A stretch of DNA of 64,000 nucleotides from a virus (Duplodnaviria > Caudoviricetes). Shown in pieces: positions 12,203 to 62,102 of this stretch. Location: positions 75,666 through 139,665 of IMG/VR virus record IMGVR_UViG_3300014059_000005. One strand, 5' to 3'. The notes beneath the pieces are model-generated. The model was not told where the DNA came from, ran no database searches, and saw only the letters and a list, made by a program, of their open reading frames with translations. Both the position numbers and the translations under genes were made by a program. Position 1 is the stretch's first letter, and the number at the start of each line of letters is the position of its first letter.

Positions 12203-12457
12203 TCATGGTGATGTGGGCGTGCTAGATTGTGAGGGGTTGAAAGGGGATAAGGGGCTGGGATCTTCGGGTCCTGGCCCCTTATTATTTGTCTTTCTGAGGA
12301 CAAGACGAAATCCGTAGTAGTCGGAGAGTGCCCTTGACACATTGTAGTTGCGATAGCAAGAGTAGGCGTTCGATGGTTGATAGGATAACGCACCGCCTCG
12401 GAGCAACCGGAACGGTCTCTGAGTGAGAATCGGTTTGGGTCTTGCGATAAGGATCAT
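12203..12457 (-). CDS. CLec/FGE C-terminal variable micro-gene 1 (C-terminally extended)
   Basis: MILIARPKPI...RLLRGG...YGFRLVLRK. Confidence 0.75.
   Translation of the reverse strand: MILIARPKPILTQRPFRLLRGGALSYQPSNAYSCYRNYNVSRALSDYYGFRLVLRKTNNKGPGPEDPSPLSPFNPSQSSTPTSP
12247..12282 (+). terminator. UUCG-capped hairpin, probable terminator at the convergence of the two transcription units
   Basis: ataaggggctgggatc-ttcg-ggtcctggccccttat. Confidence 0.6.
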
Positions 12458-12630
12458 GGTATTCTCTTGCGGAGAATTATCCGGAAGCCCAAGAAGTCGA
12501 TCCGGTCCGTAGGCCCGGCCCAGTCACGGTTCGCCGACCGACAAGATAGACTGCGGTAGTACCAGCCACCGCCCTGTAGCACCCGGTAGGAGCCATCGAT
12601 GATCGGTCTAGATCTAGCAATCAGGATCAT
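12454..12630 (-). CDS. CLec/FGE variable micro-gene 2 (58 aa; not in ORF track)
   Basis: MILIARSRPIIDGSYRVLQGGGWYYRSLSCRSANRDWAGPTDRIDFLGFRIILRKRIP. Confidence 0.8.
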   Translation of the reverse strand: MILIARSRPIIDGSYRVLQGGGWYYRSLSCRSANRDWAGPTDRIDFLGFRIILRKRIP

Positions 12631-12818
12631 TTATCCCTCTTTCTGAGGATTACTCGAAAGCCCAGACCACCACAGCGAAAACTTTCCGGGTTCCAGATTC
12701 TATGCCACGAACTGGATCGCCAGACCATGCTCTGGAAGCCGCCACCTCGGATGGTATGGGAAACACACTGGGAAGCGATCAGGGACACCAGGGTCCCTGA
12801 TCGCTTCACCAGAATCAC
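12627..12818 (-). CDS. CLec/FGE variable micro-gene 3 (divergent), coupled to the FGE-core stop
   Basis: MILVKR...TIRGGGF...GLGFRVILRKRDK. Confidence 0.75.
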   Translation of the reverse strand: MILVKRSGTLVSLIASQCVSHTIRGGGFQSMVWRSSSWHRIWNPESFRCGGLGFRVILRKRDK

Positions 12819-13822
12819 TGGGAGCCTCCGGACTCTCCAGACTCCCGAAGGGCCTTTTCTGCCGCCTCGACTTCCTTTTTGTACCTCTGGGCATCATAGA
12901 GGCAGGCACACCACTCCCAGACGTTGCCGTGCATGTCGTAGAGGCCAAAGGCATTACAGGGATAGGATCCCACCGGGGTGGTCCGGTTGATCTTCTCATC
13001 GAAGTTGGCCATGTCGTGGGTCAGAGTGCTGCCAAAGGTGTAGGCGCTCCGGGTGCCGCCTCGACAGGAATACTCCCACTCGTACTCGGTGGGTAGTTCG
13101 TAGTAGTATCCCTTGGCGATCTCCTCGGGCAGTTCGGAGAGTTTCTTGCAATACTCCTGGGCGTCGTGCCAGGACACATTTTCCACGGGGTGGCCGGGGT
13201 GCTTGAAGGACGTGGATGGATTGGTGCTCATCACCTTCTCCCACTCCCTCTGGGTAACGGGAAAGGTCCCCATGTACAGACCTTCCATCTGCACCAGGTG
13301 CTGGGGACCTTCATCGGAATGACGATGGGGCTCACTGTCCGGAGAGCCCATGACATTGATGCCGGGAGGAGTGACCTTGAATTCCATGCCGATCGAGTTG
13401 ACGATCCTTGGCATGACCACCGGGACCTTTTCCAGGAGCATGGCCTGGATCTGCTTCTCCACCTCGGGATCGTAGGAATCCGGATCGAGTTGGTTCAGGG
13501 TCATCCGTAGGAGTCGTGCGGATTGCTCCCGACCTTCTTCGATCAGGGCATCGGTGAGGGCAAACCACCCCGTGGTGTCATTGGGGTCGATGGTGAGAGC
13601 GTGCAGGATCGAATCGGTGTCGGTGAAGGCCATAGTGGACTTTCCTTGTGTAAGGGACTTACGGAGAACACGAAAACCAAAGAAGTTGTACCAGTTTGCT
13701 GGTTCACAGGCGTTTCGGTACGTCAACCGGCAATACATCGCAAGAGATAGCCAGCAACCACCTCGAAATATCCGATATGGGGAATCGGGGTATGTTGTTC
13801 GCAAGGTAGTGGTGAGAATCAT
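12815..13822 (-). CDS. TIGR02996-like + FGE-sulfatase (SUMF1/CLec) protein lacking the C-terminal RGG...GFR segment; micro-gene 4 fused in frame at the N-terminus (alternative start 13633)
   Basis: NSIGMEF..PPG..MGS, PVTQREW, HPVENVSWHDAQEYC, LPTEYEWEYSCRGG, NAFGLYDMHGNVWEWC, then a stop; N-terminus MILTTT..RIFRGGCW..CRLTYR..FGFRVLRK. Confidence 0.9.
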   Translation of the reverse strand: MILTTTLRTTYPDSPYRIFRGGCWLSLAMYCRLTYRNACEPANWYNFFGFRVLRKSLTQGKSTMAFTDTDSILHALTIDPNDTTGWFALTDALIEEGREQSARLLRMTLNQLDPDSYDPEVEKQIQAMLLEKVPVVMPRIVNSIGMEFKVTPPGINVMGSPDSEPHRHSDEGPQHLVQMEGLYMGTFPVTQREWEKVMSTNPSTSFKHPGHPVENVSWHDAQEYCKKLSELPEEIAKGYYYELPTEYEWEYSCRGGTRSAYTFGSTLTHDMANFDEKINRTTPVGSYPCNAFGLYDMHGNVWEWCACLYDAQRYKKEVEAAEKALRESGESGGSQ

Positions 13823-13998
13823 TTCTCTTTTTTCTTTCTGAGAGCAACCCGGAAGCCCATGTCGTTGTATCGTAATGTTGGTCTGTACCCGATGCGGTAC
13901 GACGACCTGTAGTTCCGGCCGACGCAGCCCCAGCAACCACCCCGGCTCATCCAGAGGGAACCCTGAATGATCGGCCCAGGTTTAGCAATGAGGATCAT
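13819..13998 (-). CDS. CLec/FGE variable micro-gene 5
   Basis: MILIAKPGPIIQGSLWMSRGGCWGCVGRNYRSSYRIGYRPTLRYNDMGFRVALRKKKEK. Confidence 0.8.
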   Translation of the reverse strand: MILIAKPGPIIQGSLWMSRGGCWGCVGRNYRSSYRIGYRPTLRYNDMGFRVALRKKKEK

Positions 13999-14171
13999 CA
14001 GCCCCTCTTTCTGAGGATTGCCCGGAAGCCCAGGAGGTTGTCCCGGAGCATCGGCACGAGCCTGAGGCAGCGTGCCGACCGGCAGTTCTGGCCGGGGCTG
14101 TACCAGCAGCCGCCCCGGATCACCTGGAAGGAGCCCTGGAGGATCGGTCCAGGTCTAGCGATCAGGATCAT
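13998..14171 (-). CDS. CLec/FGE variable micro-gene 6
   Basis: MILIARPGPILQGSFQVIRGGCWYSPGQNCRSARCLRLVPMLRDNLLGFRAILRKRG. Confidence 0.8.
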   Translation of the reverse strand: MILIARPGPILQGSFQVIRGGCWYSPGQNCRSARCLRLVPMLRDNLLGFRAILRKRG

Positions 14172-14344
14172 CTCGACCTCTTTCTCAGGATCACCCGGAA
14201 GCCCAGATCGTGGTCCCGTTTCGGCGGCACGACCCTGCGGCGGTCCGCCGACCGGCAGTACAGGCCGTGACCGTTCCAGCAGCCGCCCCGGAACACCCGG
14301 TAGGAGCCCTGAATAATTGATTTAGGTTTAGCAATCAGGATCAT
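14168..14344 (-). CDS. CLec/FGE variable micro-gene 7
   Basis: MILIAKPKSIIQGSYRVFRGGCWNGHGLYCRSADRRRVVPPKRDHDLGFRVILRKRSR. Confidence 0.8.
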   Translation of the reverse strand: MILIAKPKSIIQGSYRVFRGGCWNGHGLYCRSADRRRVVPPKRDHDLGFRVILRKRSR

Positions 14345-14526
14345 TTCGATCTCTTTCTGAGGATTGCTCGGAATCCCAGGCCGTTTTCCCGATACGTTGG
14401 TGTATACCTGTGGCGGTACACCGACCGGCAGAACTGGCCGATGTTGACCCAGCAACCACCCCGGATCGTCTGGAACACCCGGTAGGAGCCCAGGGTGATT
14501 GATCCAGGTTTAGCAATCCGGATCAT
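14341..14526 (-). CDS. CLec/FGE variable micro-gene 8
   Basis: MIRIAKPGSITLGSYRVFQTIRGGCW...CRSVYR...LGFRAILRKRSK. Confidence 0.8.
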   Translation of the reverse strand: MIRIAKPGSITLGSYRVFQTIRGGCWVNIGQFCRSVYRHRYTPTYRENGLGFRAILRKRSK

Positions 14527-14708
14527 TAGCCTCTCTTTCTGAGGATTACCCGGAAGCCCAGATCGTCGTACCGGAACGCTGGTCTGTATCCGATGCGGTA
14601 CGACGACCTATAGTTCTCGCCGACGCAGGCCCAACTACCGCCCCGGATCGCCCAGATCACCCAGTGGGAGCCCAGGGTGATAGGTCTAGGTCTAGCAATC
14701 AGGATCAT
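14526..14708 (-). CDS. CLec/FGE variable micro-gene 9
   Basis: MILIARPRPITLGSHWVIWAIRGGSW...LGFRVILRKRG. Confidence 0.8.
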   Translation of the reverse strand: MILIARPRPITLGSHWVIWAIRGGSWACVGENYRSSYRIGYRPAFRYDDLGFRVILRKRG

Positions 14709-14736
14709 TTGTCTCTCCTCTTTCCTTGCTGTGTCA

Positions 14737-14766
14737 CAACTATGCACCAGGAATTCGGAAAGTCAA
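14737..14766 (-). promoter_or_regulatory. Repeated phage promoter TTGACT-N16-CATAGT upstream of micro-gene cluster 1
   Basis: One of 13 copies with identical 16-nt spacing. Confidence 0.75.
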
Positions 14767-14785
14767 ATGAAAATGAAGAGTTCGG

Positions 14786-15115
14786 CTACAGCTTCCTGCG
14801 GTTGCGAAGTTCCGCATCCCCACCACAGAAGCGGCACAGCTTGTGCTTCGTGGCGCAATTGGTACAGAGCACATCCACACAGGTGTTGCCATAGTGCATC
14901 TCCGTCTTGCACATTCCACACAGGGCTACGGTACACATGGCACCACCGATACGGCCCCGCATGTAGTGGCAAACCCGGCACATGCATTTCTTCTTGCGGA
15001 TCTCCAGATCGGGATCTTCGTAGCACTTTTTGACAGAATCGTAATATGCCTGTGAATAATTCGTCGCTCTCAAAACGGCACAGAGATCCCAGGGTTTGTA
15101 GATTGGCTCTCGCAT
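14786..15115 (-). CDS. Zinc-finger protein
   Basis: CRVC, CGMC, CTNC, CRFC pairs. Confidence 0.6.
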   Translation of the reverse strand: MREPIYKPWDLCAVLRATNYSQAYYDSVKKCYEDPDLEIRKKKCMCRVCHYMRGRIGGAMCTVALCGMCKTEMHYGNTCVDVLCTNCATKHKLCRFCGGDAELRNRRKL

Positions 15116-15717
15116 GATAATAAACTCTTGCGAATCTTGTTCAGGGCGTTGACATGGGACTGACTCACTGCTGATCGGGACACTCCCAGGCCATCGGCAA
15201 TGTCGCACAGCCGTCTACCCTTGAGGTAGTGTTCTTCCAGTACGAATCGCTGATAGGGCTTCAGGACGGACAGGAGGGACTCACAAAGATCGGCATCGTC
15301 CAGGGTTCGCTTCCAGGAGCAATCGATGACAGGGAGGGCCTTGGGGTCATAGGGGACTCGGGTGGGCAATGGATAGACGACCTTGGCCTCGAAACTGCTC
15401 TTGCTCATGGGATGGTGTAGACTGCGAATATATCGCTGTATCTGGTTGCGGACACTCCTCCAGGCGTAAGTGCCGAAGCGGACCCCATGCCTGGAGTCAT
15501 AGTTCCTGGCACATCTCCAGAGTGCCACATCCGCTACCTGGACCAGTTCCTCGTAATCGAAGCACATCCCCAGGAATCTACCGTATTGGAGTGCCTTCTT
15601 GGCCAGGATTCTGGAGACTCCACGGTTCTCGGACCAGAGTAGTTCGATCCGGAGTCTCTCTTCTTCGGCGGACTTGCTCGTGGATTCTTTCGTGGACTTG
15701 CTCGTGGATTTGCTCAT
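15070..15717 (-). CDS. Sigma-70 family RNA polymerase sigma factor
   Basis: EELVQVADVALWRCARNYDSRHGVRFGTYAW (region 2); HTH LCDIADGLGVSRSAVSQ (region 4). Confidence 0.85.
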   Translation of the reverse strand: MSKSTSKSTKESTSKSAEEERLRIELLWSENRGVSRILAKKALQYGRFLGMCFDYEELVQVADVALWRCARNYDSRHGVRFGTYAWRSVRNQIQRYIRSLHHPMSKSSFEAKVVYPLPTRVPYDPKALPVIDCSWKRTLDDADLCESLLSVLKPYQRFVLEEHYLKGRRLCDIADGLGVSRSAVSQSHVNALNKIRKSLLSCESQSTNPGISVPF

Positions 15718-15736
15718 GACCGTGTACCCGAATCCC

Positions 15737-15769
15737 AAAGAGAGGGGGACACAACCGCCCCCTCTCTTT
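15737..15769 (-). terminator. Intrinsic terminator-like hairpin
   Basis: aaagagaggggg-N9-ccccctctcttt. Confidence 0.5.
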
Positions 15770-15777
15770 CGCGAAGG

Positions 15778-15960
15778 TCACTTCTTGCTGGGTTTGGGTG
15801 CCAGTAACTTGGCGAGCAATTCCAGGGCCTTGTGTGTGGGCAATTCGGACAGGATCTTCCAGGATACGGCGTGGACTCGGGACACGTCCGCCACACCGAT
15901 CTTGGTCTTCTCGGTGTCCACCTCGCTGGCCACGGCATTCTTGAACTCGGTCGGGGTCAT
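15778..15960 (-). CDS. Hypothetical protein
   Basis: 60-aa ORF with ATGA coupling. Confidence 0.55.
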   Translation of the reverse strand: MTPTEFKNAVASEVDTEKTKIGVADVSRVHAVSWKILSELPTHKALELLAKLLAPKPSKK

Positions 15961-16607
15961 CGGTCTATCTCGTGAGATTCAGAAGATATCTCCGGGGTCA
16001 CATATTCGGTCCCGGAGTCCACAGGTCGGGTACGGACCACGCTGCCCGTTACCAGCCTACGATTGTGGGTCACGAACAGGATCTGGAGTCCTAATTCTCT
16101 GGAGAGAGTCTCCAGGAGGAACCTCACTCGATCCTGGTATTCCTCGGAGACGAAGCGAAAGGGCTCGTCCAGGGCCAGGAATGTTCGTCTCCTGGTTCTG
16201 GATAATAACAGACAGGCCAGCCTCAGGGCAAAGGCACTGACATCGATTACACCACCTCCACAGGACCCCAAGGGGTCCTCGACCTCTCTACCATGATCGA
16301 GAAGGGTGAGTGTAGCCTCGGTGCGGCCACGCTTGTCCTCGAAATCGATTCGCAGGGAATAGGTATCCTTGCCGAATACTGCTTCCAGGCATCTGGAGGC
16401 TATCTCGGAGACTCTACCGTGGCAGGCCTCCTGAACCTGAACCGCAACTTCCTGGGCGATGGAGAGAGACTTTTTCAGGTGTTCCTGCTCCTGGATCAAT
16501 TCCTGGGATCTGGAGGACTCACTGGAAGTATTCTTGATGGCAACCTGGTATTCCATCAGGAGAGGTCGCAATTGATTCCGATAACGATCCAGGGCGGTAG
16601 GCGTCAT
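15957..16607 (-). CDS. SbcC/Rad50-like ATPase, C-terminal half
   Basis: Signature-like SCGGG, Walker B/D-loop LALDEPF, H-loop FVTH; no Walker A. Confidence 0.85.
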   Translation of the reverse strand: MTPTALDRYRNQLRPLLMEYQVAIKNTSSESSRSQELIQEQEHLKKSLSIAQEVAVQVQEACHGRVSEIASRCLEAVFGKDTYSLRIDFEDKRGRTEATLTLLDHGREVEDPLGSCGGGVIDVSAFALRLACLLLSRTRRRTFLALDEPFRFVSEEYQDRVRFLLETLSRELGLQILFVTHNRRLVTGSVVRTRPVDSGTEYVTPEISSESHEIDR

Positions 16608-16780
16608 GAGGTTTTCTTTCTGAGGATTACCCGGAAGTCCAGATCGCTGAACCGGAACGTCGGCTCGAGCCTGCCACGGTACGCCGACCGGCAGTTCCGG
16701 CCGCTGCTGCTCCAGCCGCCGCCCTGGATCACCCGGCCAGAGCCCTGTAGGATCGGCCTAGGTCTAGCGATGAGGATCAT
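16604..16780 (-). CDS. CLec/FGE variable micro-gene 10
   Basis: MILIARPRPILQGSGRVIQGGGWSSSGRNCRSAYRGRLEPTFRFSDLDFRVILRKKTS. Confidence 0.8.
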   Translation of the reverse strand: MILIARPRPILQGSGRVIQGGGWSSSGRNCRSAYRGRLEPTFRFSDLDFRVILRKKTS

Positions 16781-16953
16781 GGTGTTCTCTTTCTCAGGAT
16801 TACCCGGAAGCCCAGGCCGTGGTTCCGAACCGCCGGCACGTACCTGTGGCAGCGTGCCGACCGGCAGTTCTGGCCGGGGCTGTACCAGCCACCGCCCCGG
16901 AACACTGAGAGGGAGCCCTGGATAATTGATCTAGGCCTAGCAATCAGGATCAT
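16777..16953 (-). CDS. CLec/FGE variable micro-gene 11
   Basis: MILIARPRSIIQGSLSVFRGGGWYSPGQNCRSARCHRYVPAVRNHGLGFRVILRKRTP. Confidence 0.8.
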   Translation of the reverse strand: MILIARPRSIIQGSLSVFRGGGWYSPGQNCRSARCHRYVPAVRNHGLGFRVILRKRTP

Positions 16954-17126
16954 TTGTCTCTCTTTCTGAGGATTACTCGAAAGCCCCGGCTAAGATAGCG
17001 GAACGACGCAAAATATCTATAGCGGCGTGTCAATCCACAGGTCCCATAGCAGCTACGCCAACCACCACCCCGATACACTGGTTCATTTCCTTGAATGCCT
17101 GGTTTGGGTCTAACGATCTGGATCAT
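16950..17126 (-). CDS. CLec/FGE variable micro-gene 12
   Basis: MIQIVRPKPGIQGNEPVYRGGGWRSCYGTCGLTRRYRYFASFRYLSRGFRVILRKRDK. Confidence 0.8.
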   Translation of the reverse strand: MIQIVRPKPGIQGNEPVYRGGGWRSCYGTCGLTRRYRYFASFRYLSRGFRVILRKRDK

Positions 17127-17197
17127 CTGTCTTTCTTTCTGAGGATTGCCCGGAAGGAGCCCCAGACAATCGGTCTGGGTTTGTTGATCCGGATCAT
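17123..17197 (-). CDS. 'Empty' micro-gene 13 (variable core deleted in frame, 24 aa)
   Basis: MIRINKPRPIVWGSFRAILRKKDR; both ATGA overlaps retained. Confidence 0.7.
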   Translation of the reverse strand: MIRINKPRPIVWGSFRAILRKKDR

Positions 17198-17376
17198 TTC
17201 ATATTCTTTTTCAGGATCAACCGCAATCCAAAGTTGTTGAACGTGGTTTGTGGAATGTACCCAACACGCCTGGCCGCTCGGCAGGGCCATTCATAGTTGA
17301 ACCAGCCGGCCCCCCGAACCATGAGTTCTCGGCCCCGAAAGATCGGTCTAGGTCTAGCGATCAGGATCACGATCAT
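17194..17376 (-). CDS. CLec/FGE variable micro-gene 14
   Basis: MIVILIARPRPIFRGRELMVRGAGW...CRAARR...FGLRLILKK. Confidence 0.8.
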   Translation of the reverse strand: MIVILIARPRPIFRGRELMVRGAGWFNYEWPCRAARRVGYIPQTTFNNFGLRLILKKNMK

Positions 17377-17765
17377 TTCCCCCGAAGTCTGGGTCCATAT
17401 TCTTCCTCGAACCTCTGATATTCATCATCGATCGAATCTTGCTGATGTCGTAATTGCGCAGCAAGTCTCGTCAATTCCTCCCGGGCGTCCTCCAGGGAGT
17501 TACAACCGAACTGAGTTTTCAATCTACGAAGGACTTCCTGGAGGGCTCCCTGGACCCGATCTCTTTGTCGGGTTACGGTCTCTAGTTGCTCCTGGATAGC
17601 ACGGTACTCCTCTACCGTGATCCGCTTCGTGGAGACCCCCGGTCGATCGCCGTCAGGAGGATCTCCTCCACCCTGGGGTCTTCCGGTTGGATTCGCAGTC
17701 TTTGTCTCACGGCCTCCTGATACGACGGTGGTGCGTCGGGAGCCCTTTTCAGTGTTTCCAGACAT
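17373..17765 (-). CDS. Small coiled-coil protein (true start probably near 17620)
   Basis: Heptad-rich C-terminal ~80 aa; located between SbcD and SbcC-C. Confidence 0.5.
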   Translation of the reverse strand: MSGNTEKGSRRTTVVSGGRETKTANPTGRPQGGGDPPDGDRPGVSTKRITVEEYRAIQEQLETVTRQRDRVQGALQEVLRRLKTQFGCNSLEDAREELTRLAAQLRHQQDSIDDEYQRFEEEYGPRLRGK

Positions 17766-27095: not shown

Positions 27096-27566
27096 TCAAC
27101 GGGTGCGGTTGCGACGGAACGCCTGTTCCGTCTTCAGTCGCTCGATATGGTCTGCCGCCTGGCGATCCTTGGGGATCTTGGGATCGGCGTAGTAGCCCGC
27201 CAGGAATAGCTGGAGTATGCCTTCGATCGAGCCCTTGCGCTGGCGGTAGGATTCCACGGACCCCGCCAGGAGTTCTGCCTTGTACTCGGCCTCGACCACG
27301 GCTTGCTGGACTTCCTGGTACTTTACGGACATCTCCAGGGCATCGTCCACCGAGGACTCCGTCGCCTTGGTAATCCCAAAAGCCTCTGGGTTCTGTCGGA
27401 TCGCCTTGCGGATCTTGGCCTTGGTCAGCTTGAGCAAGTTCTTGGCTTCGGCCACCTCCTTGCGAGCTTCCGCCAGGGATCCAGATTCCTTGCGATACAG
27501 CTTGGGCTGCTGGATGAGTTCGGTGTCGAGGTTGAACGGGTCGATCTCGACGAAATCCTCGGTCAT
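27096..27566 (-). CDS. UvsY-like recombination mediator
   Basis: Helical 156 aa; LDTELIQQPKLY...KATESSV...YRQRK pattern. Confidence 0.55.
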   Translation of the reverse strand: MTEDFVEIDPFNLDTELIQQPKLYRKESGSLAEARKEVAEAKNLLKLTKAKIRKAIRQNPEAFGITKATESSVDDALEMSVKYQEVQQAVVEAEYKAELLAGSVESYRQRKGSIEGILQLFLAGYYADPKIPKDRQAADHIERLKTEQAFRRNRTR

Positions 27567-29842: not shown

Positions 29843-29848
29843 ATCTTT

Positions 29849-30097: not shown

Positions 30098-30372
30098 TTC
30101 TTTCCTTTCTTGGGTTCTGGGGATTCCTCGAACATCTCGAACTGTTCCAGGAACTCTTTCTGAGTGATAACCCAGCGCAGGGCGGAATCTGGACGGTTGA
30201 GCCAGCGAGTATGGAATACCACCAGGGGCTCCAGATCGGACTCTCTCAGAGCAAGTTCACAGATGCGGTAGACCTTACTACAGACATTACCATCTCTGGA
30301 TTTCTCCCTCCAGAGCCTACCTCTGGGAATCTGATTCTGGAGATTCAGAAGTTCTTCTACGGTTTCTGGCAT
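30094..30372 (-). CDS. Small DUF1653-like protein
   Basis: YRICELALRESDLEPLVVF...WVITQKEFLEQFE. Confidence 0.45.
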   Translation of the reverse strand: MPETVEELLNLQNQIPRGRLWREKSRDGNVCSKVYRICELALRESDLEPLVVFHTRWLNRPDSALRWVITQKEFLEQFEMFEESPEPKKGKK

Positions 30373-30554
30373 GGATTCCTAGCCTGTTGTTTTCTCAGGA
30401 TTACCCGGAAGCCCAAGTAGTTGAACCTGTACAACGATACGACCCTATGGCGGTCCGCCGACCGGCAATATTGGCCGAAGTTGAACCAGCTGCCGCCTCG
30501 GAGCACCCGATCAGAGCCTTGAATAATCGGCTTCGGTCTAGCAATCAGGATCAT
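30357..30554 (-). CDS. CLec/FGE variable micro-gene 17
   Basis: MILIARPKPIIQGSDRVLRGGSWFNFGQYCRSADR...YLGFRVILRK. Confidence 0.8.
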   Translation of the reverse strand: MILIARPKPIIQGSDRVLRGGSWFNFGQYCRSADRHRVVSLYRFNYLGFRVILRKQQARNPCQKP

Positions 30555-30727
30555 GTCGTTCTCTTACGAAGGACAAGTCTCAATCCCACAAGGACAGATA
30601 CTCCATCAGGCACAAACCAGCAACGGTACGCCGAACGGGTCCAATCTTCGTTTGATGGGCGGCTACCGCCTCGGAGTATGGGCTCGACTCCCTGTAAGAT
30701 CGGTTTGGGCTTTGTTATCAGGATCAT
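30551..30727 (-). CDS. CLec/FGE variable micro-gene 18
   Basis: MILITKPKPILQGVEPILRGGS...TRSAYR...VGLRLVLRKRTT. Confidence 0.8.
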   Translation of the reverse strand: MILITKPKPILQGVEPILRGGSRPSNEDWTRSAYRCWFVPDGVSVLVGLRLVLRKRTT

Positions 30728-30900
30728 GATACTTTCTTTTTGAGGATTACTCGAAATCCCAGATCGCAGGACGAGGGCAGTGGCTCGTTCCCGTAGCGGA
30801 GCGATGACCGGTAACTCAGAACGAAGTCGTACCAACTACTGCCCCGGATCACCCAGAGGGAGCCTGAGATGATCGGTCTAGGTCTGGCAATGAGGATCAT
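30724..30900 (-). CDS. CLec/FGE variable micro-gene 19
   Basis: MILIARPRPIISGSLWVIRGSSWYDFVLSYRSSLRYGNEPLPSSCDLGFRVILKKKVS. Confidence 0.8.
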   Translation of the reverse strand: MILIARPRPIISGSLWVIRGSSWYDFVLSYRSSLRYGNEPLPSSCDLGFRVILKKKVS

Positions 30901-31079
30901 GGTGTTCTCTTGCGGAGAATGATGCGGAGGCCCAGGAAGAAGCCCGGGCCTGTCGGATCATACCCATAGCGGTCCGCCGATCGGCAGAACCGGCTGTACC
31001 CGTACCAGCTACCGCCCCGGAACACTCGGGACAGATTTTCTGACCCGATCATCTTGTTGATATTGGATATCGTAATCAT
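30897..31079 (-). CDS. CLec/FGE variable micro-gene 20
   Basis: MITISNINK...RVFRGGSWYGYSRFCRSADR...LGLRIILRKRTP. Confidence 0.8.
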   Translation of the reverse strand: MITISNINKMIGSENLSRVFRGGSWYGYSRFCRSADRYGYDPTGPGFFLGLRIILRKRTP

Positions 31080-32242: not shown

Positions 32243-32431
32243 TCACTGAGGTTGAATTGGATGTTTCTTTCTGAGGGCAATCCGGAAGCCCAGGTTGTAG
32301 AACCGAACTGTCGGCTCGAACCTGTTGCGGTTCGCCGACCGACAGCGTCCACCATAGAAGATCCAGCCGCCGCCCCGGTACACCCGGTCGGTGCCCCGGT
32401 TGATAGGTCTAGGTCTAGCGATGAGGATCAT
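32243..32431 (-). CDS. CLec/FGE variable micro-gene 21
   Basis: MILIARPRPINRGTDRVYRGGGW...CRSANRNRFEPTVRFYNLGFRIALRK. Confidence 0.8.
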   Translation of the reverse strand: MILIARPRPINRGTDRVYRGGGWIFYGGRCRSANRNRFEPTVRFYNLGFRIALRKKHPIQPQ

Positions 32432-32607
32432 TTCAATCTCTTTCTTAGGGCAACCCGGAAGCCCAGATAGTTGTCCCGATTCGACGGCACGAGCCTATCG
32501 CGGTACGCCGACCGGCAGTACCAGTTGTCGTAGCTAGACCAACTGCTGCCCCGGAACATCCGGTAGGAGCCCAAGGTGATAGGTCTAGGTCTAGCGATCA
32601 GGATCAT
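32428..32607 (-). CDS. CLec/FGE variable micro-gene 22
   Basis: MILIARPRPITLGSYRMFRGSSWSSYDNWYCRSAYRDRLVPSNRDNYLGFRVALRKRLK. Confidence 0.8.
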   Translation of the reverse strand: MILIARPRPITLGSYRMFRGSSWSSYDNWYCRSAYRDRLVPSNRDNYLGFRVALRKRLK

Positions 32608-32780
32608 TTATCTCTCTTTCTCAGGACAACACGGAAGCCCAGATCGCTGAACCGGAACATCGGACCATTTCTAACGCGGGGCGACAACCGGCAGTACAGG
32701 TCGCCGCTGACCCAGCCACCGCCCCGAAACACCCGGTAGGGGCTCTAAATGATCGGCTTAGGTTTAGCGATCAGGATCAT
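32604..32780 (-). pseudogene. Micro-gene 23 with an in-frame TAG at codon 12 (32745-32747)
   Basis: MILIAKPKPII*SPYRVFRGGGWVSGDLYCRLSPRVRNGPMFRFSDLGFRVVLRKRDK; many other copies have CAG here. Confidence 0.75.
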
Positions 32781-32791: not shown

Positions 32792-33394
32792 TCAAGCTCC
32801 CAGACCGGCCCCGTCATGGTATCGGAACAACCCACAGGCAAGCAGTTTGCCCCGTGACGCCTCGATGGTGGCACTGACGGCCTGCGGGGACACCCCCAGC
32901 ACCTTCGCCGTCTCGATCATGGATCCGGTCCCCGTCGGGCCGTAGACGGACCACATGATCTGGTACTGGCGTGGGGTCAGGGTGGCCTCGATCCTTTCCC
33001 ACAACTCTTCCAGTTCGATCTTCGATCCCGGCCTTTCGTTTGCCAGCAACCACCCCAAAGAGTCCCCCTCGATGCTCTGGCAGCTGAGTCTTCGTATCTG
33101 CTCCCGGAGTGACTCCTTGGTGTGCTGCTCCGGGATGTGGATGATCGTTCGCAGTACACTCGCCTCCCTGCGGAGACCCCTTTCCATCCAGACGGTGGCA
33201 TACGTCGAGAAGGCGATTCCCCGCAACGGGTCCCACTTCTCGGCCGCACGGATCAGGAGTAGCGTGGCGATCTGCACCAGGTCGTCCATGTCGTTCTCGT
33301 CCTGGCAAGCCCACCGCCCGAACCTCTGGGCTGCCGCGTGGGCCAGTCCCAGGTTCCCCTCGATCAACCTGTTCCGATGCTCGACGTCGCTCAC
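32792..33394 (-). CDS. Sigma-70 family sigma factor
   Basis: RNRLIEGNLGLA, DDLVQ...AAEKWDPLRGIAFSTYATVW, HTH ETAKVLGVSPQAVS. Confidence 0.85.
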   Translation of the reverse strand: MSDVEHRNRLIEGNLGLAHAAAQRFGRWACQDENDMDDLVQIATLLLIRAAEKWDPLRGIAFSTYATVWMERGLRREASVLRTIIHIPEQHTKESLREQIRRLSCQSIEGDSLGWLLANERPGSKIELEELWERIEATLTPRQYQIMWSVYGPTGTGSMIETAKVLGVSPQAVSATIEASRGKLLACGLFRYHDGAGLGA

Positions 33395-33570
33395 CGCTCC
33401 AGCCTCCGCTTCAGAATCAACCGGAAGCCCCGACCACTACTCAGATATATCGGGGCAACCAATAGACGACTCGCCGATCGAACATACCGGCTATTGTTGC
33501 TCCAGTAACCACCCCGGATCACCTGGTGGGAGCCCCTGAGAATCGGTTGGGGTCTAGGGATCAGGATCAT
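33391..33570 (-). CDS. CLec/FGE variable micro-gene 24
   Basis: MILIPRPQPILRGSHQVIRGGYW...VRSASR...RGFRLILKRRLER. Confidence 0.8.
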   Translation of the reverse strand: MILIPRPQPILRGSHQVIRGGYWSNNSRYVRSASRLLVAPIYLSSGRGFRLILKRRLER

Positions 33571-33703
33571 GGTGTTCGCTTTCTCAGGGCCAGTACCCGT
33601 CGCGGTAGGCGGACCAGAGGATCCCACCGACCCAGCCACCCCGGAGCACCCGAGACGAGGCCCCTACAACGACGATGTTTTTCGGTTTAGATATCAGGAT
33701 CAC
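33567..33703 (-). pseudogene. Micro-gene 25, truncated by an out-of-frame deletion (stop at 33584)
   Basis: VILISKPKNIVVVGASSRVLRGGW...SAYRDGYWP*; the residual CTGAGAAAG tail is out of frame. Confidence 0.65.
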
Positions 33704-33885
33704 GGGACCTTCTTTCTCAGAACCAGCCGGACCCCGTAGTCGCGGACCCGGAAGTCCGGCTCGATCCAGTTGTGGAAGGCGGACCGGCAATACCTTCCGT
33801 AGAGGCAGCTACCGCCCCGGAGCACGCGAGCCGAGGCCCCGACCAGGGTAACGGTTAGCGGTGATCTGACGATGGTAAACTTCAT
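33700..33885 (-). CDS. CLec/FGE variable micro-gene 26
   Basis: MKFTIVRSP...GASARVLRGGSCLYGRYCRSAFH...YGVRLVLRKKVP. Confidence 0.8.
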   Translation of the reverse strand: MKFTIVRSPLTVTLVGASARVLRGGSCLYGRYCRSAFHNWIEPDFRVRDYGVRLVLRKKVP

Positions 33886-39539: not shown

Positions 39540-39731
39540 TCACCGTGCTGGGGAATTCATTGGAGATTTTCGCAGAGCGATACGGAAGCCCAGGAGGCTG
39601 TACCGGAACGACGGCCCGCTCTTGTCGCGGTACGCCGACCGGCAGTCCCGGCCGAGGCTGCGCCAGCCACCGTTCCGGACCACCCGGTCGGAGCCCCGAA
39701 TAATCGGTCCAGGTTTAGCAATCAGGATCAT
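39540..39731 (-). CDS. CLec/FGE variable micro-gene 27
   Basis: MILIAKPGPIIRGSDRVVRNGGW...CRSAYR...LLGFRIALRK. Confidence 0.8.
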   Translation of the reverse strand: MILIAKPGPIIRGSDRVVRNGGWRSLGRDCRSAYRDKSGPSFRYSLLGFRIALRKSPMNSPAR

Positions 39732-39901
39732 TTGTCTCTCTTTCTGAGGATTACCCGGAAGCCATCATAATACTCTCCACTCCTTGGCCTCTCCCCGTAG
39801 CGATTACTAGAGCGAGTGTTGCCACCACCACGCCAGCCCGTACTCCGAAGCACACGGGTGGTTCCCTGCAAGATCAGTCGAGGCCTGACTATCAGTATCA
39901 T
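39728..39901 (-). CDS. CLec/FGE variable micro-gene 28
   Basis: MILIVRPRLILQGTTRVLRSTGW...DGFRVILRKRDK. Confidence 0.8.
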   Translation of the reverse strand: MILIVRPRLILQGTTRVLRSTGWRGGGNTRSSNRYGERPRSGEYYDGFRVILRKRDK

Positions 39902-58699: not shown

Positions 58700-58888
58700 T
58701 CATTTCTTCCGTAGGATTAGCCGGAATCCCTGGAATTCATGCTGAGAATCCTGGTGGTCGCTTAACCGTAGGGAGGATCTGGGGATGCGTAGGGGAGGCG
58801 CGATATCCGTCCAGGCGGATCCACGAATACTAGACGTGGATTCTGCACAGACAACGACCAGAGGTTTGGGCCTGGCAATGAGAATCAA
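58700..58888 (-). CDS. CLec/FGE variable micro-gene 29 (divergent, TTG start)
   Basis: LILIARPKPL...IRGSAW...QGFRLILRKK. Confidence 0.7.
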   Translation of the reverse strand: MILIARPKPLVVVCAESTSSIRGSAWTDIAPPLRIPRSSLRLSDHQDSQHEFQGFRLILRKK

Positions 58889-59061
58889 GGTGTTCTCTTT
58901 CTGAGGATGACTCGAAAACCCAAACAACTGAGGTAGAAAGTATCGCTGGTCCAGTAGCGGAATGACGCTCTACAGTTGAAATCAGTACTGAACCAGCAAC
59001 CGTTACGGATGATCCTTTCGTAGCCCTGGAGAATTGGTTTAGGCTCGATGACCAGGATCAT
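58885..59061 (-). CDS. CLec/FGE variable micro-gene 30
   Basis: MILVIEPKPILQGYERIIRNGCWFSTDFNCRASFRYWTSDTFYLSCLGFRVILRKRTP. Confidence 0.8.
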   Translation of the reverse strand: MILVIEPKPILQGYERIIRNGCWFSTDFNCRASFRYWTSDTFYLSCLGFRVILRKRTP

Positions 59062-59687
59062 ACCGTCTCCAGTGCTCCCTGGCAGATGCGGGCATTGGCA
59101 AACCGACCCGTTTCTCGTACAGAGTCGATGTTGTGGAATCCACCTCGGTTGCGGTCTGCCCTGATGCTGTAGATGCCTTCCTTCTGCATGAGGTCAGCCA
59201 GGGCGAACCAGTTGATCGCCCTTTCTGGATGGCCGATCAGTTCGTGAACCAGGGGTTGGAATTGCTTGGGTAGGGCCTTGTAATCCTTGACCAGGATGGA
59301 GAACTCCAGATCGGGATAGATGTTCTGGATCAGATGCTTCTGGAGTTTGGCTCCTCGAACTGTTTTCCCGTGGCATCGAACCCGATCGGCAAGGATCCGA
59401 CAGTGGAGCACTCCACCCATGTCCGTCCAGCAGAATACGTCCAGGACCGTGGAGGTGGCCTGATAGCCGTATCGATTGGCTACCCCGCCTCCGTTGATGT
59501 GGTAGTGCCCATGCCCTTCCTGGACCATACTGGTCAGGAACTCCTGGCTGACCTCGGAAGGTCGGACCAACCGACTCCGTTGCTGGCGGTTGGCCCCGTC
59601 CAGGCCGATCTTGACCGCTGTGGTAAGGACGTGCAGGGACTCCACTTTGTTCGTGGATACGAAGGAATAGTCGTACTTGTGGTTCAT
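59058..59687 (-). CDS. Hypothetical protein with C-terminal TIGR02996-like motif
   Basis: LIGHPERAINWFALADLMQKEG resembles the WFALTDALIEEG segment of the FGE protein. Confidence 0.55.
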   Translation of the reverse strand: MNHKYDYSFVSTNKVESLHVLTTAVKIGLDGANRQQRSRLVRPSEVSQEFLTSMVQEGHGHYHINGGGVANRYGYQATSTVLDVFCWTDMGGVLHCRILADRVRCHGKTVRGAKLQKHLIQNIYPDLEFSILVKDYKALPKQFQPLVHELIGHPERAINWFALADLMQKEGIYSIRADRNRGGFHNIDSVRETGRFANARICQGALETV

Positions 59688-60580: not shown

Positions 60581-60599
60581 CCCTCATCTCCACAGTGAG

Positions 60600-60683
60600 G
60601 GCAGGGGGCGAGCCTGCCCAGGGATTGGTTGGGCGAACGAACAACTATTGCACACTTTCCGAACTTGTCAAATCCGAACGACT
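60600..60683 (-). promoter_or_regulatory. ~85-bp promoter-leader module, copy 2
   Basis: Closely similar to 59962-60046. Confidence 0.75.
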
Positions 60684-61083
60684 ACCGGACCATCAGGTTC
60701 TCGAACACTGGCTGCATGTCGAATCCTTCCGCTAGGTCTTTGCACCTCTGGTACAGGTTCTGGATGGCGTTCCCGTAGCCCTCGAAGTGCAGGTTGCCCT
60801 GGGCCGATGCGATTCGCAGACAACCATTGTGGTACAGAGACTCTGCAATCTGCGAAAAGGCGTCCCATTTTGCCATATCGTAGGAGTGCCATTCCGGGTA
60901 TTCCCCGGACTCGATCAACTCTTCACACGACTCTCGGACGCCCTGCACACCGTTCCAGATGCCGTCGATCTCTGGCACCAGTGCGGTCAACTGGGGCAAC
61001 CCCATTATCGTTTCCAGATGCTGGTATGCTGAACACTCGACGAATTCACCGTTTGGCAGCAACCAACCGTATACGCCCTTCAT
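60682..61083 (-). CDS. Hypothetical protein
   Basis: GWLLPNGEFVEC..YQH; has RBS. Confidence 0.55.
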   Translation of the reverse strand: MKGVYGWLLPNGEFVECSAYQHLETIMGLPQLTALVPEIDGIWNGVQGVRESCEELIESGEYPEWHSYDMAKWDAFSQIAESLYHNGCLRIASAQGNLHFEGYGNAIQNLYQRCKDLAEGFDMQPVFENLMVR

Positions 61084-61092
61084 AACCCTCTC

Positions 61093-61923
61093 CTAATCAA
61101 CAGGTTCCGTCTCCAGGATGTAGCCACCATGTGGACTACTCGACCGTGTTACTCGTACCTGTCCATGCCCCACGGGCAGGGGAACCTCCAGCTTGCGGAA
61201 GATGGCCGCTTTGGCATCCACCAGAGGGGCGACGATGCTACCGTACTCCCCCACCAGCAAACCGCCCACGATGCCCGAGGTATTGAGTTGGCTCAGATTG
61301 TCCACCAACCAGTTACGCTGGGCCTGAGATACCCAGAACAGATCCCCAGATAGGTTACTGTTGATGGCTCCAATAGCATCCCGTATCTGCCGCATCTGGG
61401 ATAGTGTGGAGGACAGAACTTCCGACTCTCGATACACCCGGAGAAGTTCGTCCAGGTTCAGTAGTTGCTGCTCCAGGGTTTCCCTCTTGCGCATCTCCTG
61501 TGGGCTCAGTTCTGCCAGATCCAGGAGATCGGCAGGAGAGGGAACATTCCGGACGACTGCCGGGGTTGGGGCCACCGGCTCTGGTGTAGGGATGTTCAGA
61601 GGCACTTGCGGGATGCGAGCCCGGATATCTTCCTTGATCTCCTCTACCACGGGGGCAGGAGGTTGCCCCATGATGGCGTAGTAGTGTTCCTGGATCTCCT
61701 GTTTTTCCTGCTCCGTTCTGGCATCCCGCATCTTGCTGTACTTGCGGGACCGTAACAGGAAGATATCGACCTCTGCGATGGGATCCAGGCCGAAGAACCG
61801 TTTGGCGGCTACGCAAGCGTCTTCTCCATCCACCCGCTGGAAGGTGGATGGGGTCGTTGCCATCCCCTCCTGGACCTTCCTGCGGGGGATGTGGCCGTAG
61901 TAGTGGCGATCGCGGTCGATCAT
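61093..61923 (-). CDS. Hypothetical protein
   Basis: 276 aa, ATGA-coupled to micro-gene 31. Confidence 0.6.
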   Translation of the reverse strand: MIDRDRHYYGHIPRRKVQEGMATTPSTFQRVDGEDACVAAKRFFGLDPIAEVDIFLLRSRKYSKMRDARTEQEKQEIQEHYYAIMGQPPAPVVEEIKEDIRARIPQVPLNIPTPEPVAPTPAVVRNVPSPADLLDLAELSPQEMRKRETLEQQLLNLDELLRVYRESEVLSSTLSQMRQIRDAIGAINSNLSGDLFWVSQAQRNWLVDNLSQLNTSGIVGGLLVGEYGSIVAPLVDAKAAIFRKLEVPLPVGHGQVRVTRSSSPHGGYILETEPVD

Positions 61924-62102
61924 GTACTGATCCTCTTACGAAGAATGATGCGGAATCCTCGATCATCGTCCCGGGATCTGGGACCGAAGGCACTACGGAA
62001 ATAGGCTTGTCGGGGATAACTGGTCAAAACGAACCATCCATCCCCTCGGGTTACTCGGTAGCTACCCAGGATAATCGGTTTGGGCTTTGCTATCAGGATC
62101 AT
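61920..62102 (-). CDS. CLec/FGE variable micro-gene 31
   Basis: MILIAKPKPIILGSYRVTRGDGW...RGFRIILRKRIST; first gene after a promoter. Confidence 0.8.
   Translation of the reverse strand: MILIAKPKPIILGSYRVTRGDGWFVLTSYPRQAYFRSAFGPRSRDDDRGFRIILRKRIST

What the first reader, a model, noticed from the sequence alone, without database searches (positions are those of the whole stretch)
12203..62102. Genome-wide library of ~31 micro-genes encoding only the hypervariable tip of a C-type-lectin (FGE) fold
Seen: 31 copies of a ~177-bp ORF at 9 loci (12203-14708 x9, 16604-17376 x5, 22939-23303 x2, 30357-31079 x4, 32243-32780 x3, 33391-33885 x3, 39540-39901 x2, 58700-59061 x2, 61920-62102 x1). Many are below the ORF-track cutoff. 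Consensus is MILIARPRPIxxGSxRVxRGGxWxxxxxxCRSAxRxxxxPxxRxxxLGFRVILRKR, and no two copies are identical. Known: RVxRGGSW...CRSAxR...GFR is the C-terminal ligand-binding segment of FGE-sulfatase/SUMF1-type CLec domains and the segment diversified in FGE-type DGR targets. It normally ends a 250-aa or larger domain and is not a free peptide. Inference: the phage encodes a repertoire of interchangeable specificity peptides simultaneously, rather than one variable gene. They sit in early/replication operons, not the tail module, so an intracellular role (e.g. binding or decoying host defence or signalling proteins) is more likely than receptor binding.
Basis: partly seen in the sequence, partly recalled or inferred. 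Interest (0 to 1): 0.95.

Follow-up and report, generated by a model that had tools for sequence, protein, structure and literature searches.

The report
Split phage lectin, forty tip micro-genes
A 140-kb wastewater phage keeps a lectin-like binding domain in two parts, one gene for the constant body and about 40 tiny, all-different genes for the missing variable end-piece, which looks like a hard-wired library of interchangeable binding tips and has not been described in the papers I could search.

Summary
All 31 micro-ORFs are at the stated coordinates. Nine more lie outside the window, giving 40 in the 139,665-bp phage genome. A profile of them matches the last ~45 residues of the FGE-sulfatase/C-type-lectin fold; the best solved match is the variable end of Treponema TvpA. 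Scaffold residues are kept through many synonymous changes and loop residues vary freely, so these are selected genes.

The genome has exactly one FGE-domain gene (12815-13633), and it stops just after the WEW strand, lacking exactly the piece the micro-genes encode. The same split (tail-less body plus tail-only genes or N-terminally fused tails) recurs in at least five other phage lineages.

My best reading, at confidence 0.55, is a split lectin completed in trans by alternative tips.

I found no sign of an active DGR:
- The genome has no reverse transcriptase.
- The copies are old paralogs (closest pair 84% identical).
- Substitutions are ordinary.
- Consensus sequences are stable across 2015-2025 metagenomes.

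This scan has noted the same kind of system on other phage DNA, where its agents attributed it to host DGRs. Eight literature searches found nothing. What the assembled binder binds is unknown.

The parts
12815..13633 (-). Scaffold ('body') gene, 272 aa: a weak TIGR02996-like N-terminal domain plus the FGE/CLec core, ending about 30 aa after the WEWC strand with no tail
   Evidence: PF03781 positions 7-207 of 255, E 7e-43. It is the only FGE core in the genome. Bacterial homologues carry the tail and this gene does not. TIGR02996 scores 18.5 bits, below the 29.05 cut-off. An AAGGAAAG tract precedes the ATG at 13633.
13634..13822 (-). Tail copy fused in frame to the N-terminus of the body (ORF 12815-13822)
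   Evidence: HMM score 42. There is no stop between it and the body. N-terminal tail-body fusions recur in L018, L035, L082, L078 and L091.
12627..12818 (-). Divergent tail directly after the body. Its GTG start overlaps the body's TGA, and a GGAGG tract lies inside the last body codons.
   Evidence: The same position is occupied in the related phage L005 (10858-11043).
12454..12630 (-). Tail micro-gene (array A)
   Evidence: HMM score 100. PF03781 positions 211-254, E 5.8e-5.
12203..12457 (-). Last tail of array A, with a 28-aa C-terminal extension
   Evidence: HMM score 76
13819..13998 (-). Tail micro-gene (array A)
   Evidence: HMM score 96
13998..14171 (-). Tail micro-gene (array A)
   Evidence: HMM score 101
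14168..14344 (-). Tail micro-gene (array A)
   Evidence: HMM score 102
14341..14526 (-). Tail micro-gene (array A)
   Evidence: HMM score 90
14526..14708 (-). First tail of array A, with its own purine-rich tract upstream
   Evidence: HMM score 97
16604..16780 (-). Tail micro-gene (array B). Its stop overlaps the start of the SbcC-C-like gene 15957-16607.
   Evidence: HMM score 103
16777..16953 (-). Tail micro-gene (array B)
   Evidence: HMM score 105.5
16950..17126 (-). Tail micro-gene (array B)
   Evidence: HMM score 86
17123..17197 (-). Relic tail of 24 aa with the core deleted (array B)
17194..17376 (-). First tail of array B. Its start overlaps the stop of gene 17373-17765.
   Evidence: HMM score 65
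22939..23118 (-). Tail with the GxW loop deleted (array C)
23118..23303 (-). Tail micro-gene (array C). It overlaps the end of the RecA-like gene 23296-24408.
30357..30554 (-). Tail micro-gene (array D). It is the best match to the family profile and was the partner chain in the complex model.
   Evidence: HMM score 109.5
30551..30727 (-). Tail micro-gene (array D)
   Evidence: HMM score 62
30724..30900 (-). Tail micro-gene (array D)
   Evidence: HMM score 91
30897..31079 (-). First tail of array D, just downstream of sigma factor gene 31090-31875
32243..32431 (-). Tail micro-gene (array E)
   Evidence: HMM score 97
32428..32607 (-). Tail micro-gene (array E)
   Evidence: HMM score 99.6
32604..32780 (-). 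Tail interrupted by an in-frame TAG at codon 12 (array E)
33391..33570 (-). Tail micro-gene (array F). Its stop overlaps the start of sigma factor gene 32792-33394.
33584..33703 (-). Truncated tail that lacks the GFR strand (array F)
33700..33885 (-). First tail of array F, with a divergent N-terminus
39540..39731 (-). Tail micro-gene (array G), upstream of the UDG/exonuclease gene 38322-39536
39728..39901 (-). Tail micro-gene (array G)
58700..58888 (-). Divergent tail with a TTG start (array H)
58885..59061 (-). Tail micro-gene (array H). It overlaps the stop of gene 59058-59687.
61920..62102 (-). Single tail micro-gene (locus I). Its stop overlaps the start of gene 61093-61923.

Best explanation
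This is a split FGE-type C-type-lectin binding module. One gene makes the constant scaffold: a weak TIGR02996-like N-domain plus the FGE core up to the WEW strand. About 36 intact micro-genes of roughly 58 aa each make one version of the missing C-terminal segment, that is the RGGxW strand, the variable loops and the closing GFR strand. They are translated by stop/start coupling inside early, replication and transcription operons.

Shown here: the parts are exactly complementary, the micro-genes are selected as proteins, and the split is conserved across phage lineages.

Inferred: a tail docks non-covalently into the open scaffold, as in RNase S or split GFP, and completes the fold. One body would then yield dozens of binders that differ only at the surface DGRs normally diversify.

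The diversity here is germline. The copies are old paralogs kept different, not products of ongoing hypermutation.

The ligand and the site of action are unknown. The gene neighbourhood points to an intracellular role during infection.
For: 1. Complementarity. The body matches PF03781 positions 7-207 and the tails match 211-254 of 255. The genome has one body and 40 tails. Planctomycete TIGR02996-FGE homologues, 41-48% identical, carry the tail in cis, while the phage body and its 64%-identical orthologue stop after WEWC.
2. Recurrence. Eight further contig sets were examined: L005, L001/L002, L003/L004, L078, L091, L092, L093 and L094. In each, tail-only ORFs lie within about 1.5 kb of an FGE core. 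In seven of them that core ends 2 to 28 residues after the WEW strand. In L094 the WEW motif is not recognisable, but the 156-aa core likewise has no tail. L018, L035 and L082, and also L091 and L078, carry 1 to 4 tails fused N-terminally to a tail-less core.
3. Selection. Invariant R, G and L columns use 4 to 6 synonymous codons. Scaffold codons have pS 0.59 and pN 0.23. Loop codons have pS 0.70 and pN 0.58. 36 of 40 copies are intact.
4. Coupling. The body's last codons contain GGAGG and its TGA overlaps the GTG of the next tail.
5. Complex model of body plus tail. The score is 0.96 and the best of 3 controls is 0.00. That mark was reached by 58 of 80 solved complexes and 2 of 110 mismatched pairs. 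The runs agree in at least 98% of contacts and the partner's pLDDT is at least 73. The tail's GFR strand pairs with the body's VWEW strand. These are halves of a fold with many solved structures, so the pass may come from likeness. It shows that the tail fits the slot, not that it binds.
6. The tail alone, modelled with its alignment, has pLDDT 58 and no secondary structure.
Against: No experiment shows translation or binding. The stoichiometry is odd: about 36 tails for one body, with tails spread over 11 loci and probably different promoters. In the marine lineage 2 to 4 tails share one polypeptide, which simple 1:1 complementation does not need. The conserved N-terminus (MILIARPxPI) lies outside the confident modelled interface and is unexplained. 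The complex score is expected for any split FGE domain. The scaffold/variable split used for pN/pS was defined by amino-acid conservation, so only the high pS at scaffold codons is independent evidence.
Confidence: 0.55

Rival explanations
1. The tails work without the phage body. As free peptides they bind or poison other proteins. One example would be to compete for, or strand-swap into, host FGE/CLec-domain proteins, which in multicellular bacteria and planctomycetes are proposed antigen sensors of conflict systems. Another would be to modulate the adjacent phage sigma factors.
For: Tails vastly outnumber the body and sit in early/replication operons beside four sigma-factor genes. Host-type FGE domains are proposed invader sensors (PMC7159879; PMC10907252). 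The body's closest relatives are abundant planctomycete paralogues.
Against: Host FGE proteins have their own tail in cis, so an intruding peptide has no open slot. A tail-less core accompanies the tails in every lineage examined. The tail alone is predicted to be unstructured. The scaffold residues under selection are those that contact the body in the model.
Confidence: 0.2
2. The micro-genes are a self-propagating, nearly neutral 'plug-in' cassette. It derived from the tail of the phage's FGE gene, spreads by recombination, and is tolerated because its built-in start/stop overlap and purine-rich end keep operons translated.
For: The copies are dispersed to 11 loci, always in the sense of the host operon, with ATGA overlaps on both sides. 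Four decayed copies indicate birth and death. The nearest relative of a copy is usually in another array, in 33 of 36 cases. Array B lies between the halves of an SbcC-like gene.
Against: Protein-level purifying selection acts on fold-forming residues despite near-saturated synonymous divergence. The copies are linked to a tail-less core across distant lineages. There is no conserved flank or target sequence upstream of the arrays, and no recent copies (maximum 84% identity).
Confidence: 0.08
3. The tails are variable regions currently being written by a diversity-generating retroelement supplied by the host, as earlier agents of this scan proposed for similar phages.
For: The variable columns coincide with the segment DGRs diversify; the best PDB hit is the TvpA C-terminus. 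Variable codons end in C or T in 70% of cases against 48% at scaffold codons, and K, E, Q, M and W make up only 10.6% there. This is an NNY bias that could be a faded DGR footprint. The notes are e1-5652593 and e1-5321497.
Against: The complete phage genome has no RT and no template-like copy: the closest pair is 84% identical, with mismatches at all three codon positions and mostly transitions. Third-position entropy in variable codons equals that in scaffold codons. The majority base at variable sites is T, G or C as often as A. A scan of 185,579 species' genomes with a tail found only 3 weak hits. Contig consensus sequences from three other studies (2025) differ from this record by 0 to 3 bases per 1.1-1.5 kb across tails.
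Confidence: 0.07
4. Body and tails are joined covalently, either by programmed frameshifting or hopping at the ATGA junctions, or by DNA cassette exchange as in pilin or shufflon switching.
For: The body's stop overlaps the start of a tail in the -1 frame. One tail is already fused in frame, at the N-terminus.
Against: The junction has no slippery heptamer. In the marine lineages every tail lies upstream of the body. The other forward frames of the tails are closed. No recombinase-type flanks are seen. Joints between arrays in the contigs have short sides and are what assembly across repeats produces.
Confidence: 0.03

Closest known systems
DGR variable proteins of the FGE-type C-type-lectin fold: Treponema denticola TvpA (PDB 2Y3C); Bordetella phage BPP-1 Mtd as prototype
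   Same: The fold is the same. The tail profile aligns to TvpA residues 251-291 of 294 (E 1.2e-8) and the body profile aligns to TvpA (E 3.8e-44). The varying positions lie in the same C-terminal segment that forms the ligand-binding surface in those proteins (established knowledge; PMC5006420 and PMC6328139 were listed but not read).
   Different: Those are single chains with one variable region rewritten by an RT from a template. Here the chain is cut after the WEW strand and the variable segment exists as about 40 separate, anciently diverged germline genes. There is no RT, no template and no adenine-specific pattern.
Bacterial TIGR02996-FGE proteins of Planctomycetota/Gemmataceae (for example P0137, P0144, P0205)
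   Same: They are 41-48% identical over the whole body, including the N-terminal domain. They are the likely source of the phage gene and a hint to the host.
   Different: They are about 325-340 aa long with the tail in cis. The phage body is 272 aa and tail-less.
FGS/CLec sensor domains of NTPase-centred conflict systems in multicellular bacteria (Kaur et al. 2020, PMC7159879; Dore et al. 2024, PMC10907252)
   Same: They are hypervariable, non-enzymatic FGE-fold binders used in virus-host conflict. Planctomycetes are among the carriers.
   Different: Those are host proteins, fused C-terminally to NTPase, vWA or adaptor domains and diversified by DGRs. This one is phage-encoded, split and germline.
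Split FGE/CLec scaffold plus mini-gene arrays noted earlier by this scan in other phages (e1-5321497, e1-5652593, e1-5666340 and others; unchecked AI notes)
   Same: The architecture is the same: one tail-less core plus stand-alone variable-end genes. I saw it myself in L005, L001-L004, L018, L035, L078, L082 and L091-L094.
   Different: Several of those notes report tips matching a bacterial DGR template except at adenines. This genome shows no such signature. It also has the largest library seen here, 40 copies, and they are dispersed over 11 loci rather than clustered in one.
Protein-fragment complementation (RNase S, split GFP); natural two-gene split enzymes
   Same: This is how I propose it works: a short terminal fragment docks non-covalently and completes a fold (general knowledge).
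   Different: Those have one fragment per scaffold. Here many alternative fragments would compete for one scaffold to change its specificity.

Membership tests
Pfam PF03781 FGE-sulfatase domain (FGE-type CLec fold) | Core of the domain (profile positions ~1-207) | tested here: met
   The body 12815-13633 scores E 7.4e-43 over positions 7-207 of 255. Profile hits to PvdO, TvpA and FGE structures reach E 1e-45 to 1e-42.
Pfam PF03781 FGE-sulfatase domain (FGE-type CLec fold) | C-terminal segment (positions ~208-255: RGGSW strand, loops, GFR strand) | tested here: met
   The micro-ORFs align to positions 211-254 (single copies score at or below the 23.3-bit cut-off). The family profile hits the C-termini of 26 solved FGE-fold chains, best E 1.2e-8.
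Pfam PF03781 FGE-sulfatase domain (FGE-type CLec fold) | Whole domain on one polypeptide, in canonical order | tested here: not met
   No ORF in the genome has a core followed by a tail. The only fusion places a tail N-terminal to the core.
Diversity-generating retroelement (DGR) target | Reverse transcriptase in the element or genome | tested here: not met
   PF00078 has no match at E <= 1 in the phage record, which CheckV rates 100% complete.
Diversity-generating retroelement (DGR) target | A template repeat that matches the variable region except at adenines | tested here: not met
   Within the phage the closest pair of copies is 84% identical, with mismatches at all bases and all codon positions. 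A scan of the species-representative genomes with one tail gave 3 weak hits; that method is of limited sensitivity.
Diversity-generating retroelement (DGR) target | Variation confined to adenine-templated sites, with ongoing heterogeneity | tested here: not met
   Entropy is high at all three positions of variable codons. The majority base at variable sites is A in 15 columns, T in 13, G in 6 and C in 3 (my tally). The between-sample spectrum is dominated by transitions and tail consensus sequences are stable. A weak NNY bias remains.
Formylglycine-generating enzyme (catalytic FGE/SUMF1) | Catalytic cysteine pair and copper site in the C-terminal segment | not tested
   By eye the loop that carries the cysteine pair in human FGE is the hypervariable one here. 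That placement is from memory and was not checked against a structure.
TIGR02996 (Gemmata repeat-companion domain) | N-terminal ~45-residue domain scoring above the curated cut-off | tested here: inconclusive
   Body residues 6-46 score 18.5 bits against a cut-off of 29.05, E 0.0013. JGI names many full-length homologues as TIGR02996 family.
Mobile cassette (MITE-, integron- or homing-type) | Conserved terminal repeats or target site, and a recombinase | tested here: inconclusive
   There is no shared sequence upstream of the first copy of each array. Conservation at the copy ends is at the protein level, with synonymous variation. I did not search the genome for recombinases.

The most novel reading that the evidence does not exclude
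Phages have evolved a germline, combinatorial binder system: a single lectin-fold scaffold completed non-covalently by any one of dozens of separately translated tips. A 140-kb virus would then carry an antibody-like repertoire of about 36 specificities without any hypermutation machinery, expressed from its early and replication operons, presumably to meet variable host defence or signalling proteins.
Probability: 0.45. Interest if true: 0.9.

Novelty: new variant of a known kind. Interest (0 to 1): 0.8.

Why it matters
Hypervariable FGE/C-type-lectin domains are known as single chains diversified by retroelements. Here the same surface is diversified in another way: the domain is cut at a fixed point and many versions of the variable piece are stored as tiny genes.

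If the pieces do assemble, this would be:
- a natural case of fragment complementation used to switch specificity;
- a new route to protein diversity in viruses;
- a ready-made scaffold-plus-tip design for engineered binders.

It also bears on annotation. More than 2,000 tail-only small proteins exist in public metagenomes. They are mostly called hypothetical or mislabelled as formylglycine-generating enzyme, and most of the copies here fall below usual gene-calling lengths.

Finally, it makes testable whether phages of planctomycete-like hosts counter the hosts' own lectin-type sensors with a mirror-image repertoire.

Tried and rejected
I used single proteins instead.
- Natural tail-TIGR02996-body fusion ORF. 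AlphaFold2 without an alignment gave pLDDT 36, which is unusable. Whether the fused tail docks in cis therefore remains open.
- P0161, a 194-aa 'tail-less' homologue on a 191-kb contig. This is a bacterial gene with a frameshifted tail right behind it, among other fragmented genes. It is likely an assembly error or pseudogene, not a split system.
- Active or recent DGR. Rejected for this genome. Only a weak NNY codon bias is left.
- Frameshift fusion of body and tail. There is no slippery site.
- TGA read as sense. This would run into the closed +1/+2 frames.
- Expression. No RNA holder is listed. Two wastewater runs labelled RNA-Seq hold a small share of the stretch, and one 300-nt contig covers 14667-14966. 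The label is a guess, and contigs cannot show transcription.
- Array copy-number variants suggested by contig joints (for example 14171 to 14534). The sides are short and cross repeats, so I do not count them.
- Stem-loop arrays at 24433-25789 as a possible guide for cassette insertion. By eye their loops do not resemble the tail ends. Not pursued.
- Eight literature searches found no description of split FGE domains or tail-only micro-genes.

Full report
**Setting.** The window is bases 75666-139665 of a 139,665-bp IMG/VR virus record that CheckV rates as complete. Positions 1-12,000 carry + strand genes, one with a weak tape-measure match. From about 12,200 onward the genes are on the - strand and form a replication, recombination and transcription module:
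- a RecA-like gene, a clamp-loader ATPase, and DNA polymerase A in pieces;
- ThyX, a UDG plus 3'-5' exonuclease gene, a DnaB-like helicase, a primase and an SNF2 helicase;
- an Mre11-like phosphoesterase and an SbcC-like ATPase;
- four sigma-70/ECF-type factors.

No tRNA genes were found.

**The observation.** ORF listing shows chains of roughly 58-codon ORFs that begin MILIA(R/K)P and end GFRVILRK. An HMM built from them and run over all stop-to-stop segments of the genome gives 40 copies. Nine more lie at genome 10668-13624 on the + strand.

Within arrays the period is about 173-176 nt. Of the 22 junctions, 18 are ATGA-type 4-nt overlaps, so consecutive ORFs are in different frames and cannot form one repeat protein. 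Arrays also overlap the neighbouring ordinary genes by 4 nt, for example 17373-17765 upstream and 15957-16607 downstream of array B.

Thirty-six copies are full-length and open. The other two forward frames over the same segments are open in 0 and 2 of 36. Four in-window copies are decayed. The closest pair is 84% identical in DNA and the median is 54%.

**Homology.** Single copies align to Pfam PF03781 positions 211-254 of 255, with a best E of 5.8e-5, exactly at the gathering score. The profile of 28 copies hits the C-termini of 26 solved FGE-fold chains. The best is Treponema denticola variable protein TvpA (2Y3C), residues 251-291 of 294, at E 1.2e-8.

**Selection.** Columns with invariant or nearly invariant residues use many synonymous codons: Arg before the last strand uses 5 codons, the invariant Leu 4, the Gly of GFR 4. 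By Nei-Gojobori counting, scaffold codons have median pS 0.59 and pN 0.23, and loop codons have pS 0.70 and pN 0.58. The classes were defined by amino-acid conservation, so the contrast in pN is partly circular. The near-saturated pS at scaffold codons is not circular. It shows old copies held by purifying selection on the protein, while the loops are free or diversifying.

**The missing partner.** The genome contains exactly one FGE core, at 12815-13633 inside the largest array. It matches PF03781 positions 7-207 (E 7e-43) and ends about 30 residues after the WEWC strand.

Its database relatives are mostly 320-340-aa proteins that JGI names TIGR02996 family and NCBI assigns to Planctomycetota or Gemmataceae. 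They are 41-48% identical and all continue into the canonical RVLRGGSW...CRSAxR...GFRV tail. The phage protein and its 64%-identical orthologue P0124 do not. The TIGR02996 match of the phage protein itself is below threshold.

A tail copy (13634-13822) is fused in frame to the N-terminus of the body, and the body also has its own ATG preceded by AAGGAAAG. The body's last codons contain GGAGG, and its TGA overlaps the GTG of a divergent tail (12627-12818). This is a layout for coupled translation. There is no slippery sequence.

**Recurrence elsewhere.** A search of 5.8 billion proteins with the tail profile gave 2,312 proteins of 30-147 aa at E <= 1e-3. These fall into two groups. One is the close MILIA-type relatives. 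The other is a wider class in which 2 to 4 tails share one small ORF.

The contexts are as follows:
- Related phage contig L005 has the orthologous body flanked by about 24 tails.
- Marine contigs L001-L004 and L092 have 13-19 tails next to a 152-153-aa core that ends LVWEWTSSEH, beside Mre11/SbcC genes.
- L093 and L094 are further lineages, each with a short tail-less core next to two-tail ORFs.
- L091, L018, L035 and L082 fuse 2-4 tails N-terminally to a tail-less core. L078 has one such fusion plus six separate tails.

Most other viral FGE genes found with the body are ordinary full-length genes, so the split is a distinct minority state and not a search artefact. One apparent bacterial case (P0161) is a frameshifted normal gene.

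The ESM Atlas look-up returned mostly clusters of 50-63-aa proteins carrying PF03781.

**Modelling.** The complex of body (43-row alignment) and tail (28-row alignment) scored 0.96, against 0.00 for the best of three controls. That mark was reached by 58 of 80 solved complexes and 2 of 110 mismatched pairs. The runs agree in at least 98% of contacts and the partner's pLDDT is at least 73. The GFR strand of the tail pairs with the body's VWEW strand, and tail residues 12-56 are in contact.

Many FGE-fold structures are solved and these are two halves of that fold. The pass may therefore reflect likeness: it shows that the tail fits the vacant slot, not that binding occurs. The tail alone, with its alignment, is predicted without secondary structure at pLDDT 58. 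The natural fusion ORF folded without an alignment gave nothing usable.

**Is a DGR at work?** Other first-stage notes on this genome, and follow-up reports on other phages, propose it. For this genome I find the opposite:
- The genome has no reverse transcriptase.
- No pair of copies looks like template and target.
- Mismatches between the closest pairs fall on all three codon positions and are mostly transitions.
- Third-position entropy is the same in variable and scaffold codons, 1.33 against 1.23.
- The majority base at variable sites is T, G or C as often as A.
- A scan of one genome per 185,579 species with a tail gave three weak hits.

The phage occurs in runs of 8 studies from 2015 to 2025, from wastewater, aquaculture and aquatic samples. 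Long contig pieces from three of them cover tails with 0-3 differences per 1.1-1.5 kb and a transition-dominated spectrum. Contigs hide rare variants, so low-level mutagenesis is not excluded.

A residual bias remains: 70% of variable codons end in C or T against 48% at scaffold codons, and K, E, Q, M and W make up 10.6%. This fits either descent from a DGR-type variable region or selection for Tyr/Ser/Asp/Asn/Gly-rich binding loops.

**Dispersal.** A copy's nearest relative lies in its own array in only 3 of 36 cases. One short copy inflates this figure somewhat. There is no shared sequence upstream of the arrays. The arrays are therefore not recent local duplications. How copies moved is unknown.

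**Interpretation.** The best-supported reading is a split lectin-fold binder with a germline library of tips. I put 0.55 on trans-complementation of the phage's own body. Lower weights go to tails acting on other targets (0.2), a tolerated selfish cassette (0.08), an active host-supplied DGR (0.07) and covalent joining (0.03).

Several things remain unexplained:
- the conserved MILIARPxPI N-terminus, which lies outside the confident modelled interface;
- the large excess of tails over bodies;
- the multi-tail polypeptides of the other lineages, which might cross-link several bodies.

The ligand is unknown. Papers on host FGE/CLec sensors (PMC7159879, PMC10907252) make a host-defence target attractive, but it is untested.

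**Novelty.** Eight full-text searches found no description of tail-less FGE cores with tail-only genes. This scan has met the same architecture on other phage DNA. This genome adds the largest and most dispersed library seen so far, and a clear case in which the diversity is inherited rather than retroelement-written.

Noticed in passing
window 15957-19623 (- strand): The SbcC/Rad50-like ATPase appears to be in pieces. In order there is an N-terminal part (18553-19623, PHROG exonuclease/SbcC), an Mre11-like phosphoesterase (17612-18670), a 130-aa coiled-coil ORF (17373-17765), the five-copy tail array B, and then a C-terminal part with signature and Walker B motifs (15957-16607). In the marine lineage the SbcC gene is one 710-aa ORF.
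   Followed up: partly
window 15070-15738, 28672-29346, 31090-31875, 32792-33394 (- strand): There are four sigma-70/ECF-type factor genes. Three have a tail array directly upstream or downstream (arrays D, E and F). Array A follows the fourth after a Cys-rich 140-aa ORF (14786-15208, phrog_15241). In L005 a sigma gene is also followed by a tail with a 4-nt overlap.
   Followed up: partly
window 24433-24648 and 25518-25789: Two intergenic sets of GGGAC...GTCCC-type stem-loops flank ORF 24654-25535, which has no NCBIfam match at E <= 0.01; Pfam was not run on it. Other first-stage notes call them guide-RNA-like arrays. By eye the loops do not resemble the tail ends.
   Followed up: no
window 34196-39536 (- strand): DNA polymerase A is split. 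UDG plus 3'-5' exonuclease lies at 38322-39536 and the polymerase domain at 34196-35704. ThyX (36309-37202) and other ORFs lie between them. Tail array G lies just upstream of the exonuclease gene.
   Followed up: no
L018:6668-7861, L035:9503-10546, L082:9749-10606, L091:10528-11409: Single ORFs in other phage contigs carry 2-4 tails in tandem in front of a tail-less FGE core. This is effectively a circular permutation with spare tails. Either one tail at a time fills the slot, or chains swap tails.
   Followed up: partly
L001, L003, L004, L092 (marine and other metagenome contigs): An unrelated-looking phage lineage keeps 13-19 tails, packed 2-4 per ORF, beside a 152-153-aa tail-less core. 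The array is always next to Mre11/SbcC genes, as array B is in the window.
   Followed up: partly
window 26239-26246: A 12-nt insertion polymorphism, at slightly different registers in two studies, lies inside ORF 25861-27597 (578 aa, no Pfam match).
   Followed up: no
window 12000-31999, whole phage: Near-identical DNA of this phage is held by runs of 8 studies from 2015-2025 (wastewater, aquaculture, aquatic). It is a widespread and stable lineage.
   Followed up: partly
L005:602-4312: The related phage encodes a 1236-aa protein with a faint intein-splicing hit, just upstream of its first tail array.
   Followed up: no
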